Of a DNA stretch of 64,000 nt, positions 15,621 to 56,332 are shown in pieces. The position numbers were made by a program, and so were the translations under genes. The first letter of the stretch is position 1. Every line of letters starts with the position of its first letter. The stretch lies in NCBI GenBank assembly GCA_964429235.1, contig CAYSAQ010000002.1, forward strand, positions 230,952 through 294,951, read 5' to 3'. The stretch is from an uncultured Candidatus Marinamargulisbacteria bacterium. GTDB taxonomy: Bacteria; Margulisbacteria; Riflemargulisbacteria; GWF2-35-9; DYQY01. The notes under the pieces were generated by a model that searched no databases, was not told the DNA's origin, and saw only the letters and a program-made list of their open reading frames with translations.

Positions 15621-15678
15621 GTGCTTATTTTAACACTATAGCAGGATAAAATATGTTTCTTTAGTTAGCGACCATAAT

Positions 15679-15742
15679 CCCCCTTCGCCGAAAGGCTCTT
15701 ACCCCTTTGATAAAGGGGGCGCTGCTCCCTCGTCGAGGGAGC
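15679..15742. repeat. GC-rich palindromic element (two or three adjacent hairpins) in a divergent intergenic region
   Basis: Hairpin ccccttt-gat-aaagggg at 15702-15718 and gctccctcg-t-cgagggagc at 15724-15742, with a small gcc-gaaa-ggc stem-loop upstream. Sharply GC-rich against AT-rich flanks. Confidence 0.5.
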
Positions 15743-33025: not shown

Positions 33026-33540
33026 TATATTGTAACTCCAGCAGGAGGATTGAAGATTCTTGAAGCTAGTTCTTTGTCTATCATGAACAGGCCTCCACTA
33101 TCTTTGCCGATAAGTTTTAGGCTTTGTATAATACCGTCTGCAGTAGACTCTTCTTCTACTTGTTCATCAATAAACCATTGAAAAAAGCTTGTGCTTGCAT
33201 GGTCCTTAAGCTCAATAGCTAAGTTCATAAGGTTATTGATTTTTTCTGTTACTATTCTTTCATGGGCCAAAGCGTCTTCAAAAGCAGCAAGAGGAGATTT
33301 CCATTTGTTTTGTGGACCGTTGATTCCCGTTAAAGTTATTTTTCCACCACGTTCTAGAACATAGTCATAGAATTTTTTAGCATGAGACTGTTCTTCCATT
33401 ACTTGTACTTTCATCCAATTGGCAAAACCGTTTAGGTTTAAACTTGAGAAGTATGCTGCCATTGCAAGGTAAAGATAAGCTGAAAATAGCTCGAAGTTTA
33501 TTTGGTCATTAATGGCTTTTTCTATTTTTTTATCTAACAT
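33025..33540 (-). CDS. ferritin (non-heme)
   Basis: Ferritin-like di-iron helices (NFELFSAYLYLAMAAYF...VMEEQSHAKKFYDYVLERGG). I prefer the second Met (MLDKK, at 33540) because a ggagg SD precedes it on the coding strand; the track start is 33561. Confidence 0.85.
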   Translation of the reverse strand: MLDKKIEKAINDQINFELFSAYLYLAMAAYFSSLNLNGFANWMKVQVMEEQSHAKKFYDYVLERGGKITLTGINGPQNKWKSPLAAFEDALAHERIVTEKINNLMNLAIELKDHASTSFFQWFIDEQVEEESTADGIIQSLKLIGKDSGGLFMIDKELASRIFNPPAGVTI

Positions 33541-33567
33541 TTTTTGTTCCTCCAGCCTCACCCCCGG

Positions 33568-33589
33568 CCCCTCTCCTTCAGGAGAGGGG
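33568..33589. repeat. GC-rich perfect hairpin (9-bp stem) in a divergent intergenic region
   Basis: cccctctcc-ttca-ggagagggg lies immediately upstream of the ferritin start and is not a terminator by position. Confidence 0.5.
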
Positions 33590-33653
33590 GGAGAGAAAGT
33601 TCTTTTTCTTTTATTGTAGTGATTTAAATTTGAGATTCAAGTAAATTCTTTTA

Positions 33654-33695
33654 GCTCCCTCACTGAGGGGGATGTCGCAAAGCGACAGGGGGAGC
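33654..33695. repeat. compound GC-rich palindromic element
   Basis: gctccct...ccctca-c-tgaggg (33657-33669) and tgtcgc-aaa-gcgaca (33672-33686) are enclosed by gctccc/gggagc arms, about 45 nt upstream of the mfd-like start. Confidence 0.45.
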
Positions 33696-33739
33696 TATTA
33701 TTTGCCATTCACCCACATAACATATACAATAATTCAGCT

Positions 33740-40074: not shown

Positions 40075-40101
40075 TTCTCCCTCGCCATTGGCGAGGGAGA
40101 A
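40075..40101. terminator. bidirectional terminator hairpin (12-bp GC-rich stem) between convergent genes
   Basis: ttctccctcgcc-att-ggcgagggagaa followed by tcgtttt. It lies between the stops of the DoxX gene (+) and the RND gene (-). Confidence 0.7.
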
Positions 40102-53384: not shown

Positions 53385-53403
53385 AGGAGGACTCAGTCCT
53401 CCT
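53385..53403. terminator. intra-operon stem-loop after acpP (possible attenuator or partial terminator)
   Basis: Near-palindrome aggaggact-c-agtcctcct lies 18 nt after the acpP stop and about 20 nt before fabK, followed by tgtt. The stem contains an SD-like aggagg. Confidence 0.4.
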
Positions 53404-55666: not shown

Positions 55667-56233
55667 ATGTATGTAGCAGGCGTAGATGAAGCAGGTCGTG
55701 GAGCATTAGCTGGCCCAGTTGTGGCAGCAGCAATTGTGTTTTCTAAAGGTCAGGATATTTCTAAGTTCAGAGATTCTAAGAAACTATCTGCAAAACAGAG
55801 AGAAGCAATTTTTCAAAGTATAATCGACGAGTCGGAATCAATAGGTATTGGTGTAATACATCACGATATTATAGATCGGGTTAATATATTGCAGGCAACC
55901 TATCAGGCGATGAATAAAGCAGTGCTTCGGCTGCACCTAATGCCAACGCTGGTACTTGTTGATGGAAATCGCGAAATACCGCAATTAGAGCTCCCTCAGA
56001 AGACTATAGTGAAGGGCGACGATAAGATTCCGCTTATTTCAGCAGCATCTATTATTGCTAAAGTTGTTAGAGATAGAATTATGCTTGGATATGCTAAAGT
56101 TTTCCCTGAATATGAGTTTGAGAAACATAAGGGATATGGTACCAAGTTACATATGGAAAATATTGAGATTGCAGGGCTTAGCAGGATACATCGTAGGAGT
56201 TTTAATATTTCCAAACAGTTGGTTTTGTTTTAA
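55667..56233 (+). CDS. rnhB: ribonuclease HII
   Basis: 188 aa with the catalytic start YVAGVDEAGRGALAGPVV and the central DSKKLS motif. Confidence 0.9.
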   Translation: MYVAGVDEAGRGALAGPVVAAAIVFSKGQDISKFRDSKKLSAKQREAIFQSIIDESESIGIGVIHHDIIDRVNILQATYQAMNKAVLRLHLMPTLVLVDGNREIPQLELPQKTIVKGDDKIPLISAASIIAKVVRDRIMLGYAKVFPEYEFEKHKGYGTKLHMENIEIAGLSRIHRRSFNISKQLVLF

Positions 56234-56247
56234 CCCTTCCGTCTGCT

Positions 56248-56268
56248 AGCGCAGCCACCTTCCCTTCG
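56248..56268. repeat. GC-rich hairpin (9-bp stem) after rnhB; terminator-like but with no T-tract
   Basis: ccttccctt-cgt-aagggaagg, with a smaller ctgc-tagc-gcag hairpin at 56233-56244. Same pyrimidine-arm/purine-arm style as the other intergenic hairpins. Confidence 0.5.
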
Positions 56269-56332
56269 TAAGGGAAGGAGAATTCAGAGTGGTAACTTCA
56301 CAAAGATGTAATAATTTTGTTATAGTTATTAA

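What the first reader, a model, noticed from the sequence alone, without database searches (positions are those of the whole stretch)
15679..15742. GC-rich pyrimidine-arm/purine-arm hairpins recur in intergenic regions of an AT-rich genome
Short perfect hairpins with C/T-rich 5' arms and G/A-rich 3' arms occur in at least five intergenic regions: 15702-15742, 33568-33589, 33654-33695, 40075-40101, 56248-56268 and 59030-59138. Their GC content is far above the flanks. Those between convergent genes can act as terminators, but the copies at 15.7 kb and 33.6 kb sit in divergent promoter regions, which points to a dispersed palindromic element family (REP-like or RPE-like) or regulatory RNA structures rather than simple terminators.
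Basis: seen in the sequence. Interest (0 to 1): 0.5.

Follow-up and report, generated by a model that had tools for sequence, protein, structure and literature searches.

The report
Dispersed triplex-motif DNA repeats
The GC-rich hairpins are real and are part of short three-armed DNA repeats (the BoxC/PIT 'intrastrand triplex motif' kind known from E. coli and cyanobacteria) that were inserted into gene spacers of this Margulisbacteria genome; the kind is known, but relatives hint at which nuclease gene travels with it.

Summary
The window has six perfect pyrimidine-arm-first GC-rich hairpins with arms of at least 7 nt. There were none in 100 dinucleotide shuffles, and all six are intergenic. 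In five of the six hairpins, and in the composite at 33654-33697, a second purine/T tract follows within 3-19 nt and is the exact mirror of the purine arm. This is the design of a class II purine-motif intrastrand triplex, the BoxC/PIT/TMECO kind. The unit at 33556-33589 is almost the E. coli type B sequence. Where the linker is long, it forms a small hairpin whose stem covaries. Two hairpins (15724-15742 and 40075-40101) have no third arm and have T-rich tails, so they may be terminators. Relatives have empty orthologous sites: the ackA/lptFG spacer is 2-4 nt against 256 nt here, and units are absent from rnhB/yraN, the ferritin leader and the pth upstream region. The units are therefore lineage-specific insertions, not conserved terminators or riboswitches. 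In relatives and other phyla, inward-pointing units bracket YcjD-like DUF559 nuclease genes, including E. coli ycjD. That suggests, but does not prove, a mobilising cassette. I rate this a new variant of a known kind, of moderate interest.

The parts
15676..15718 (-). Unit W1. On the - strand it reads CCCCTTT atc AAAGGGG, then a 19-nt linker (contains GCC-TTTC-GGC), then GGGGATT.
   Evidence: 7 of 7 triads are compatible with the purine motif (G.G-C, A/T.A-T); the direct-repeat decoy scores 6/7. About 0.007 such third strands are expected in a 30-nt zone. It is ambiguous, because AAGGGGG in the same tract can also pair by Watson-Crick with CCCCCTT.
15724..15742 (.). W2, a plain hairpin GCTCCCTCG t CGAGGGAGC with no third arm, followed on the + strand by CTTTTATTAATTT.
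   Evidence: best third strand 5/7. The terminator-like scan flags it on the + strand. DNA fold -8.3 kcal/mol, z -3.5. It resembles the outer hairpin plus CCTTTT tail of units downstream of DUF559 genes (L031).
33556..33589 (-). Unit W3. On the - strand it reads CCCCTCTCC tgaa GGAGAGGGG ccg GGGGTGAGG. It sits in the ferritin 5' leader, and its purine tail runs into the GGAGG ribosome-binding site 10 nt before the ATG at 33540.
   Evidence: 9 of 9 triads; decoy 7/9. Expected by chance 0.0007. It is nearly E. coli TMECO type B, CCCTCTCCC tgtg GGAGAGGG ccg GGGTGAGGG. It is absent from the L003 leader, which is about 43 nt shorter.
33613..33640 (-). Promoter-like site TTGAAT-16-TACAAT for ferritin. 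It is context, not part of the repeat.
   Evidence: The same hexamers are present in L003 and L012 (read).
33654..33697 (+). Unit W4: AGCTCCCTCA c TGAGGGGGA, linker hairpin TGTCGC-AAA-GCGACA, then GGGGGAGCT. It lies between the two divergent promoters.
   Evidence: Sequence. R2 AGGGGGAG is the mirror of R1 GAGGGGGA, but the Y/R1 stem has a 1-nt loop and one T.G, so strict scans miss it. The Watson-Crick fold pairs Y with R2 instead (z -4.0 to -4.4). L012, L003 and L010 carry 1 to 5 units, plus a DUF559 gene in L003 and L010, at the same spot.
33702..33730 (+). Promoter-like site TTGCCA-17-TACAAT for mfd. It is context, not part of the repeat.
   Evidence: L012 has TTGCCT-17-TAAAAT at the same place.
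40075..40101 (.). W5, a plain 12-bp hairpin TTCTCCCTCGCC att GGCGAGGGAGAA with no third arm. It fills the 42-nt gap between the convergent DoxX and AcrB-type genes.
   Evidence: It is the top terminator-like site on the + strand, with tail TCGTTTTAGA. DNA fold -14.2 kcal/mol, z -6.8. It shares the CTCCCTCG/CGAGGGAG arms with W2.
56232..56278 (-). Unit W6. On the - strand it reads CCTTCCCTT acg AAGGGAAGG t-GG-CTGC-gcta-GCAG-ac GGAAGGGTT. It abuts the rnhB stop codon.
   Evidence: 9 of 9 triads; decoy 7/9. Expected by chance 0.0009. The same arms, with a different linker hairpin (CTCAAC-gta-GTTGAG), occur at L012 5695-5742 next to unrelated genes. The unit is absent from the rnhB-yraN spacer of L019 (9 nt) and L022 (80 nt).
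58917..58980 (.). Degenerate fragments of units (CTCGCTCAC, CCTCAGTGACCTTCG, CTCAGTGACC) at the start of a 256-nt block inserted between the ackA and lptFG stop codons.
   Evidence: The 20-mer CACTTCGAGAGCCTCAGTGA is identical to L012 9818-9837, where it is nested inside the linker hairpin of a unit. The whole block is missing in L019, L020, L021 and L024.
59019..59047 (-). Unit W7. On the - strand it reads CTTTCCCC tg GGGGAAAG cta GATAGGGG.
   Evidence: 8 of 8 triads; decoy 6/8. Expected by chance 0.0016.
59121..59148 (+). Unit W8: CTTCCTC ttgg GAGGAAG tca GAAGGAG, followed by more purine tracts up to 59172.
   Evidence: 7 of 7 triads; decoy 5/7. Expected by chance 0.014.

Best explanation
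The hairpins are the Watson-Crick part of short (28-48 nt) GC-rich repeat units built as pyrimidine arm, loop, purine arm, linker, second purine/T arm. The linker is either 3 nt or a small hairpin. The second purine/T arm is the mirror image of the first purine arm. This is the class II purine-motif 'intrastrand triplex motif', the kind first described as BoxC/PIT and later as TMECO in E. coli, and found in abundance in cyanobacteria.

Shown here: the three-arm design; its excess over chance; the covariation of all three arms and of the linker hairpin between copies; and that the copies are lineage-specific insertions into intergenic spacers, in either orientation.

Inferred: the only fold that uses all three conserved arms is a hairpin with the third arm laid antiparallel on the purine arm (G.G-C and T.A-T/A.A-T triads). 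According to the literature this fold forms in DNA but not in RNA. The units would therefore act at the DNA level, when the purine-rich strand is single-stranded (replication, repair, recombination or an ssDNA transfer intermediate). They would behave as selfish or neutral repeats that mark unstable spacers, not as gene regulators.

Further inference, weaker: they spread with, or derive from, the inward-pointing end modules of small YcjD-like DUF559 nuclease cassettes.

Two plain hairpins (15724-15742 and 40075-40101) lack the third arm and may simply work as terminators.
For: 1. Design and chance. Five of six perfect Y/R hairpins carry a perfect full-length mirror third strand within 3-19 nt on one strand (7/7, 9/9, 9/9, 8/8, 7/7). 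The direct-repeat decoy is never perfect. 0.0007-0.014 are expected per site, and no class II motifs appeared in 100 window shuffles or 1000 local shuffles.

2. Third-arm bases. T replaces A in the third arm (GGGGTGAGG, GGAAGGGTT, GATAGGGG, GGGGATT). The purine-motif code allows this, but it rules out Watson-Crick pairing with the Y arm at those positions.

3. Covariation. There are 13 different Y arms, each with matching R1 and mirrored R2, across 28 units in 10 loci. 18 of 21 long linkers form a hairpin of >=4 bp, with 17 different stems; shuffled linkers give a mean of 2.2 and a maximum of 7.

4. Class bias. There are 18 class II loci against 1 class I locus in 246 kb of Margulisbacteria DNA.

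5. Match to the described family. W3 is near-identical to TMECO type B. The features reported for TMECO also hold here: always intergenic, both orientations, inverted pairs and hypervariable loci.

6. Insertions. The ackA/lptFG spacer is 2-4 nt in four relatives, 157 nt in one and 256 nt here. W6, W3 and W1/W2 are absent from orthologous spacers. The same unit occurs at non-orthologous sites in two species.

7. No known RNA family matches.

8. DUF559 link. Units lie within 300 nt of the ORF and point into it in 7 of 8 independent loci with close homologues, and in none of 19 loci with distant homologues. E. coli ycjD ends inside a degenerate unit and has TMECO no. 9 about 170 nt downstream.
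Against: 1. Triplex folding was not and cannot be tested here. For the E. coli motif the triplex forms only with the isolated strand in vitro, and in vivo DMS footprinting gave no sign of it.

2. Purine tracts are low-complexity. With 6-nt arms the direct-repeat decoy does about as well as the mirror.

3. For W1 and W4 the second purine arm can also pair by Watson-Crick with the Y arm, and the nearest-neighbour fold prefers that pairing.

4. The copies in the window are not near-identical to one another, so 'family' rests on architecture and cross-species matches rather than on many identical copies.

5. Only about 76 kb of this genome was seen, and the 12 kb flanking the window hold no further unit.

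6. There is no DUF559 gene in the window. E. coli TMECO sites other than the ycjD locus show no DUF559 remnants. Six relatives' loci of about 20 kb have no units at all.

7. No target-site duplications were seen.
Confidence: 0.72

Rival explanations
1. The hairpins are ordinary, independently evolved intrinsic (rho-independent) terminators and attenuators.
For: W5 (40075-40101) sits between convergent genes and has the tail TCGTTTTAGA; it is the best terminator-like site in 30-50 kb. W2 is flagged on the + strand. W6, W7 and W8 lie downstream of genes.
Against: Six of the eight hairpins have no T tract on either strand. W1-W4 lie in divergent spacers, W4 between the two promoters. Relatives manage with 2-4 nt between ackA and lptFG and 9 nt between rnhB and yraN. 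A typical terminator of this genome (21663-21692, A-tract/stem/T-tract) looks different. The conserved third arm and linker hairpin have no role in termination. The paper read here reports, citing earlier work, that E. coli PIT/BoxC elements showed no terminator or promoter activity.
Confidence: 0.1
2. The units are RNA-level regulators. The pyrimidine arm (CCUCC-like, resembling the anti-Shine-Dalgarno sequence) and the two GGAGG-like purine arms form alternative pairings that expose or hide a ribosome-binding site.
For: The W3 tail supplies the GGAGG 10 nt before the ferritin ATG. In DUF559 cassettes the inner purine arm lies 3-7 nt before the start codon (L010 and L028). W1 and W4 have two alternative Watson-Crick partners for the Y arm.
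Against: Units occur in both orientations relative to transcription: W6 is antisense, and W4 lies upstream of both promoters. They are not conserved at orthologous leaders. T-for-A changes in the third arm weaken pairing with the Y arm. No Rfam family matches. RNA folds of the W3 and W8 regions are no better than shuffles (z -0.2 to +0.4).
Confidence: 0.1
3. The units are REP/BIME-type or MITE-type elements moved by a transposase: a RAYT (REP-associated tyrosine transposase) or an IS (insertion sequence) transposase.
For: They are short GC-rich palindromes dispersed in intergenic DNA, sometimes in inverted pairs and clusters, with presence/absence differences between relatives.
Against: No transposase or RAYT gene lies in the window or in the fetched relatives' loci. 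There is no conserved GTAG-type head, no terminal inverted repeats with target duplications, and the copies are not near-identical. The three-arm mirror design is not a REP feature.
Confidence: 0.05
4. The conserved third arm serves something other than a triplex. It could be a binding site for a protein that reads hairpin plus tail (for example the DUF559 nuclease), or part of a G-rich four-stranded structure. On this view the mirror symmetry is a by-product.
For: There is no in vivo evidence for triplexes at the E. coli motif. The G runs in R1 and R2 are long. The association with a nuclease gene suggests protein recognition.
Against: The mirror relation, with only G opposite G and A/T opposite A, holds over 13 different arm sequences. 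This is what a base-triad code predicts, and is hard to explain by a sequence-specific protein site. A quadruplex would not need the pyrimidine arm.
Confidence: 0.13

Closest known systems
BoxC / PIT elements / TMECO of E. coli (Hoyne et al. 2000; Holder et al. 2015, PMC4666352)
   Same: Class II order (Y arm, R arm, reverse-Hoogsteen arm) with 7-9-nt GC-rich arms. Always intergenic, in both orientations, in inverted pairs, and at loci that differ between relatives. W3 differs from TMECO type B only by a one-base shift of the arms and the first loop.
   Different: The arms here are much more varied (CTTCCTC, CTTTCCCC, CCTTCCCTT and others) than the near-identical E. coli copies. Half the units have a 15-24-nt linker that forms its own hairpin.
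GC-rich intrastrand triplex motifs of cyanobacteria (Microcystis, Nostoc, Anabaena) in the ITxF survey
   Same: GC-rich class II motifs that are far over-represented against scrambled genomes, in the sister lineage of Margulisbacteria.
   Different: I could not compare sequences, because the database is not available here.
REP/BIME elements with their RAYT transposase
   Same: Short intergenic GC-rich palindromes that cluster and vary between strains. They offer a model in which one domesticated nuclease gene maintains many orphan hairpins.
   Different: No RAYT and no GTAG head were found. The candidate partner here is a PD-(D/E)XK (Vsr-like) DUF559 protein, not an HUH Y1 enzyme. The units have a third arm.
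Rickettsia palindromic elements (RPE)
   Same: Dispersed palindromic repeats. In one fetched locus (L028 3020-3115) two units lie in frame inside an RmlD-like gene, as RPEs do.
   Different: RPEs are 100-150 bp and AT-rich-genome specific. The units in this window are 28-48 nt and all intergenic.
Small dispersed repeats (SDR) of filamentous cyanobacteria (Elhai et al. 2008; recalled from memory, paper not read here)
   Same: Very small (about 20-30 nt) hairpin-associated repeats that insert into each other and into intergenic hairpins. Compare the 20-mer nested in a linker hairpin in L012.
   Different: I made no sequence comparison, and triplex design has not been described for SDRs as far as I recall.

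Membership tests
Class II purine-motif intrastrand triplex motif (Hoyne 2000 / ITxF definition) | Three consecutive domains on one strand in the order pyrimidine arm, purine arm, third (reverse-Hoogsteen) arm. | tested here: met
   W1, W3, W6, W7 and W8 under strict rules, W4 under relaxed rules. There is no class I motif in the window.
Class II purine-motif intrastrand triplex motif (Hoyne 2000 / ITxF definition) | The third arm is antiparallel to the purine arm and uses only G.G-C, A.A-T or T.A-T triads. Stem is 6-15 nt, with at most one mismatch. | tested here: met
   7/7, 9/9, 9/9, 8/8 and 7/7 perfect triads. The direct-repeat decoy is never perfect at full length.
Class II purine-motif intrastrand triplex motif (Hoyne 2000 / ITxF definition) | Short loops (1-6 nt in ITxF, 0-10 nt in Hoyne et al.). 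| tested here: inconclusive
   Met by W3, W7 and W8, whose second loop is 3 nt. Not met by W1, W4 and W6, whose linkers are 15-19 nt. Those of W4 and W6 fold into a perfect hairpin of 4-6 bp (only 3 bp in W1), which would shorten the effective loop.
Class II purine-motif intrastrand triplex motif (Hoyne 2000 / ITxF definition) | The isolated strand actually folds into a triplex (CD, NMR, melting). | not testable with these tools
   The folding programs model only Watson-Crick and wobble pairs.
TMECO / BoxC consensus CCCTCNCCC N3-6 GGGNGAGGG N3 GGGNGAGGG | Match to the consensus pattern. | tested here: not met
   W3 (CCCCTCTCC tgaa GGAGAGGGG ccg GGGGTGAGG) fits only with one mismatch per arm because the register is shifted by one base. 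The other units have different arms. W3 is a close relative, not a member in the strict sense.
Intrinsic terminator | A GC-rich hairpin directly followed by a T/U tract at the 3' end of a transcription unit. | tested here: not met
   Met only by W5, and in sequence terms by W2. The six three-armed units have no T tract, and relatives lack them at the same gene ends.
REP / RAYT system | Many near-identical imperfect palindromes with a conserved tetranucleotide head, plus a RAYT gene flanked by them. | tested here: not met
   No such head or near-identical copies were found. There is no Y1-transposase gene among the genes of the window and fetched loci. The whole genome was not available.
Rickettsia palindromic element (RPE) | Element of 100-150 bp, often inserted in frame in coding genes. 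| tested here: not met
   The units are 28-48 nt, and all copies in the window are intergenic. One in-frame case was seen only in an unrelated locus.
Known structured RNA families (Rfam 15) | Score at or above a family's gathering threshold. | tested here: not met
   There were no hits at gathering threshold in the window. Only chance-level hits (E 0.08-0.95) appeared in relaxed searches of the spacers.

The most novel reading that the evidence does not exclude
The three-armed units may be the end modules of a widespread, so far undescribed selfish cassette that encodes a YcjD-like DUF559 (Vsr-fold) nuclease. In the cassette, units point inward on both sides of the gene. The inner purine arm of the upstream unit serves as the ribosome-binding site, and the linker hairpin of the downstream unit carries the stop codon. 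The nuclease would recognise the folded (triplex or hairpin) DNA ends. The solitary units in this window, and BoxC/PIT/TMECO elements in E. coli, would be its orphan, MITE-like progeny. This would give a function to DUF559/YcjD and an origin to BoxC repeats, which have had neither since the 1990s.
Probability: 0.3. Interest if true: 0.8.

Novelty: new variant of a known kind. Interest (0 to 1): 0.5.

Why it matters
Intrastrand-triplex repeats (BoxC/PIT/TM) are abundant in enterobacteria and cyanobacteria and mark unstable loci. Their origin, their way of spreading and any function are still unknown. The key survey explicitly found no mobility gene near them.

This window extends the kind to Margulisbacteria, the non-photosynthetic sister group of cyanobacteria. 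The design survives wholesale change of the arm sequences, with three-way covariation plus a covarying linker hairpin. That argues for selection on the fold itself. It also shows that earlier searches, which allowed only short loops, would have missed half of the units.

The recurrent bracketing of YcjD-like DUF559 nuclease genes by inward-pointing units gives a concrete, testable candidate for the missing enzyme. For annotation, the practical lesson is that these hairpins should not be called terminators or riboswitches by default. They also explain odd C-terminal tails on DUF559 proteins and contig breaks at such loci.

Tried and rejected
- **Known RNA genes.** Rfam at gathering threshold on the window, relaxed searches on the spacers, and a tRNA/tmRNA scan gave nothing meaningful.
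- **DUF559 gene in the window.** A tblastn search found none.
- **Protein-anchored scans for relatives.** The genome and metagenome collection scans yielded only four Margulisbacteria loci. I therefore obtained orthologous regions through AckA and Pth homologues and contig look-ups.
- **Strain-level variation.** Two other samples carrying the same Mfd protein are 100% identical over 4.5-6.6 kb, so they are uninformative.
- **Extending the census.** The 9.4 kb upstream and 2.7 kb downstream of the window contain no further unit.
- **Direct-repeat decoy.** With 6-nt arms it does not separate from the mirror model; only full-length arms discriminate.
- **DUF559 remnants at other E. coli TMECO sites.** None were found: at most two places per genome, both at the ycjD locus.
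- **Strand bias relative to replication.** GC skew is positive across the whole window, and the units split four on the - strand to two on the + strand. That is too few to judge.
- **Target-site duplications.** None are evident at the W6 and ackA/lptFG junctions.
- **Literature.** Searches for DUF559, ycjD or BoxC found no paper linking the gene to the repeats.
Full report
**Observation.** The window is 35.5% GC and encodes ordinary housekeeping genes. Its Mfd, AckA and Pth proteins are 60-82% identical to proteins of Marinamargulisbacteria and Riflemargulisbacteria MAGs, so the source is a member of the Margulisbacteria.

Two corrections apply. The one given as 56248-56268 is at 56258-56278. 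'59030-59138' is two hairpins, at 59030-59047 and 59121-59138.

A scan for perfect hairpins with a homopyrimidine 5' arm and a homopurine 3' arm (arm >=7, G-rich) finds six, plus one of the opposite polarity. One hundred dinucleotide-preserving shuffles of the window gave means of 0 and 0.08. One thousand shuffles confined to the five spacers gave none. All six lie in intergenic DNA, which makes up only about 3.7 kb of the 64 kb. A perfect palindrome of this kind reads pyrimidine-arm-first on both strands, so the polarity bias is a property of the element and not of the strand chosen.

**The missing third arm.** Next to five of the six hairpins, on one strand only, a second purine-rich tract follows the purine arm after 3 to 19 nt. 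Read 5' to 3', it is the exact mirror of the purine arm: G stands opposite G, and A or T stands opposite A.

| Unit | Purine arm | Third arm | Triads |
|---|---|---|---|
| 15676-15718 | AAAGGGG | GGGGATT | 7/7 |
| 33556-33589 | GGAGAGGGG | GGGGTGAGG | 9/9 |
| 56232-56278 | AAGGGAAGG | GGAAGGGTT | 9/9 |
| 59019-59047 | GGGGAAAG | GATAGGGG | 8/8 |
| 59121-59148 | GAGGAAG | GAAGGAG | 7/7 |

A decoy that asks for a direct repeat instead of a mirror is never perfect at full length (6/7, 7/9, 7/9, 6/8, 5/7). The degenerate mirror patterns occur only 3 to 59 times on both strands of the window, so 0.0007 to 0.014 would be expected in any one 30-nt zone. No class II motif appeared in any shuffle.

The composite at 33654-33697 has the same plan (CTCCCTCA, TGAGGGGGA, a TGTCGC-AAA-GCGACA hairpin, then AGGGGGAG). 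Its first stem has a one-base loop and a T.G, so it passes only relaxed rules. Two hairpins, 15724-15742 and 40075-40101, have no third arm. They share the arms CTCCCTCG/CGAGGGAG and are the only ones followed by T-rich tails.

**What this design is.** The order pyrimidine arm, purine arm, antiparallel G/A/T arm defines a class II purine-motif intrastrand triplex (PMC4666352). [quoted passage not shown]

The unit in the ferritin leader reads CCCCTCTCC tgaa GGAGAGGGG ccg GGGGTGAGG. TMECO type B reads CCCTCTCCC tgtg GGAGAGGG ccg GGGTGAGGG. They have the same arms shifted by one base and the same second loop.

The reported properties of TMECO also hold here. It is always intergenic, occurs on both strands, often forms inverted pairs, lies at loci that vary between strains, and has no promoter or terminator activity. 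The same paper states that purine-motif triplexes do not form in RNA, that the isolated E. coli strand forms a stable triplex in vitro, and that no triplex was detected in vivo or in duplex DNA.

**Variation supports selection on the fold.** I collected units from the window, three Margulisbacteria relatives and seven loci from other taxa. Among them are 13 different pyrimidine arms, each with its complementary purine arm and its mirrored third arm.

T frequently replaces A in the third arm. The triad code permits this, but it destroys Watson-Crick complementarity to the pyrimidine arm. The third arm is therefore not simply a second pairing partner.

Where the linker is long it forms its own hairpin. 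Eighteen of 21 linkers have a perfect stem of >=4 bp, with 17 different stem sequences; shuffled linkers give a mean of 2.2 and a maximum of 7. Such a hairpin would bring the third arm back onto the duplex.

In 246 kb of Margulisbacteria DNA I found 18 class II loci and a single class I locus.

**Caveats on the fold.** With 6-nt arms the mirror and direct models are not separable, because the tracts are low-complexity. For the units at 15676-15718 and 33654-33697, nearest-neighbour folding prefers pairing of the pyrimidine arm with the second purine arm.

**The units are insertions, not conserved signals.** Synteny around ackA is conserved in five relatives.

- **ackA/lptFG.** The convergent stop codons are 2-4 nt apart in four relatives, 157 nt apart in one, and 256 nt apart in the window. 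The extra DNA in the window holds two units and degenerate unit fragments.
- **rnhB/yraN.** The spacer is 9 nt in one relative and 80 nt of AT-rich DNA in another. Neither has a unit.
- **Ferritin leader.** It is about 43 nt shorter in L003, which matches the length of the unit. The TTGAAT/TACAAT promoter is conserved.
- **pth upstream.** The divergent spacer is 99 nt without any unit in L025, against 330 nt here.
- **Between the ferritin and mfd promoters.** The window has one unit, L012 an inverted pair, and L003 and L010 five units plus a gene.

The unit of the rnhB/yraN spacer recurs in L012 next to unrelated genes, with identical arms but a different linker hairpin. A 20-mer from the ackA/lptFG block is nested inside a linker hairpin in L012. 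Six loci of about 20 kb from close relatives have no unit at all. Density therefore varies between lineages, as it does between E. coli and Salmonella.

No Rfam family matches.

**Mechanism.**

*Shown:* the three-arm architecture, its covariation, its insertional distribution and its lack of a fixed relation to transcription.

*Inferred:* because all three arms and the linker hairpin are maintained while their sequences change, the selected feature is a fold of one strand. The only fold that uses all the parts is hairpin plus third strand. On published evidence that fold is a DNA structure, not an RNA structure.

I therefore take the units to be DNA-level repeats that fold when the purine-rich strand is unwound. 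They would persist as selfish or neutral passengers in spacers that tolerate them, namely between convergent stop codons, between divergent promoters and in leaders. Incidental effects are likely in single cases. The unit in the ferritin leader now supplies the GGAGG before the start codon, and the two plain hairpins may terminate transcription.

**A candidate partner gene.** In L003 and L010 the cluster upstream of mfd contains a 134-residue DUF559 protein (Pfam E 1.7e-31). Units stand on both sides of it and point into the gene. The inner purine arm of the upstream unit ends 3 nt before the ATG. The stop codon lies in the linker hairpin of the downstream unit.

The same arrangement appears in other loci:

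- L028 has three tandem units upstream and about seven downstream.
- L031 lies in a Firmicute-like gene context.
- Four loci from the viral-contig collection carry homologues that are >=44% identical.

None of 19 loci with more distant DUF559 homologues has a unit. Overall, 17 of 21 units in these loci lie within 300 nt of the gene.

Of the 120 closest homologues, 44 end in tails that read like translated unit sequence (KQSLSQLR, KSFHH, IPPSPP). Only 2-3 controls do.

E. coli YcjD is 39% identical to the L003 protein. It ends in ...RRSPSP inside a degenerate CCCTCTCCC/GAGGGGG hairpin. It is followed by a remnant of a second DUF559 3' end and then, about 170 nt downstream, by TMECO no. 9.

ycjD is present in 3378 of 5426 complete E. 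coli genomes. According to PMC12817139 it replaces the eefRABCD operon in phylogroups A, B1 and C. The supplementary tables of PMC4666352 list 19-30 TMECO in strains that I know to belong to A, B1 and C, 1-2 in B2 strains, and 6-13 in D and F strains (phylogroup assignments are from my own knowledge).

This fits the idea that the nuclease maintains the repeats. It is confounded by phylogeny, however, and other TMECO sites carry no DUF559 remnants. The only solved relative is an uncharacterised structural-genomics protein, 3HRL. I found no paper that links the gene to the repeats. I rate this reading at about 0.3.

**Verdict.** The interpretation as a dispersed element family is right in substance, but the family is BoxC/PIT/TM-type intrastrand-triplex repeats, not REP or RPE, and not regulatory RNA. 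It is a new variant of a known kind, in a new phylum, with diverse arms and a hairpin linker. Interest is moderate for the finding itself, and higher if the DUF559 cassette idea proves true.

Noticed in passing
L003 9251-9983; L010 4296-4892; L028 3860-4680; L031 9824-10391; L033 188-635: Small YcjD-like DUF559 nuclease genes are bracketed by class II units that point into the gene. The upstream inner purine arm lies 3-7 nt before the ATG, and the stop codon lies in the downstream linker hairpin. This was seen in 7 of 8 independent loci with close homologues and in none of 19 with distant ones.
   Followed up: partly
L056 (E. coli K-12 NC_000913.3 1349000-1353000), 2040-2830: ycjD ends inside a degenerate BoxC-like hairpin. 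It is followed by a remnant of a second DUF559 3' end and then by TMECO no. 9. Published TMECO counts are 19-30 in strains of the ycjD-bearing phylogroups, against 1-2 in B2 strains. ycjD is present in 3378 of 5426 complete genomes.
   Followed up: partly
L028 3020-3115: Two tandem 48-nt units (96 nt, 32 codons) lie in frame inside an RmlD-type dTDP-4-dehydrorhamnose reductase gene, between ...FKTDIS and LDITD.... This resembles RPE insertions in Rickettsia.
   Followed up: no
window 58931-58950 and L012 9818-9837: An identical 20-mer, CACTTCGAGAGCCTCAGTGA, occurs at non-orthologous sites in two species. In L012 it is nested inside the linker hairpin of a unit, which suggests that repeats insert into repeats.
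   Followed up: partly
window 53385-53403: This is the only purine-arm-first hairpin (AGGAGGAC tca GTCCTCCT). It sits just after the acyl carrier protein gene, with no third arm and no T tract. It may be an unrelated mRNA structure.
   Followed up: no
window 21663-21692: A textbook bidirectional intrinsic terminator (AAAAAGCCCAGTCAATTGACTGGGCTTTTT) lies between convergent genes. It shows what ordinary terminators look like in this genome.
   Followed up: no
window 33613-33640 (-) and 33702-33730 (+): Divergent promoter-like hexamers for ferritin and mfd are conserved in L003 and L012. The DNA between them is a shared insertion hot spot, carrying 1 to 5 units with or without a DUF559 gene.
   Followed up: partly
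L027 74-108: This is the single class I motif (third arm, purine arm, pyrimidine arm: AGGGGGAT...AAGGGGGAG ttc CTCCCCCTT). It lies upstream of pth in a relative, at the spacer where the window has units 15676-15742.
   Followed up: no
L021 7861-8532 and L024 7896-8423: Relatives carry an extra minus-strand ORF with no Pfam match (223 aa in L021, 122 aa in L024) between rnhB and yraN. This is the same spacer where the window has a unit, so the spacer takes up foreign DNA repeatedly.
   Followed up: no
L032, L035, L036 (3' ends of loci): Several contigs end within about 100 nt of the DUF559 gene's 3' end. This is consistent with tandem unit arrays breaking short-read assemblies.
   Followed up: no
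window 1-64000: GC skew is positive in nearly every 4-kb bin (0.09-0.28; -0.01 at 40-44 kb), so the whole window lies on one replichore with the + strand as the G-rich strand. Units split four on the - strand and two on the + strand.
   Followed up: no
L022 13314-20038; L023 9231-17114: A type III-A (Csm) CRISPR-Cas gene set with a WYL regulator sits next to the lptFG operon in one relative, where the window and other relatives have folate and tsaE genes.
   Followed up: no
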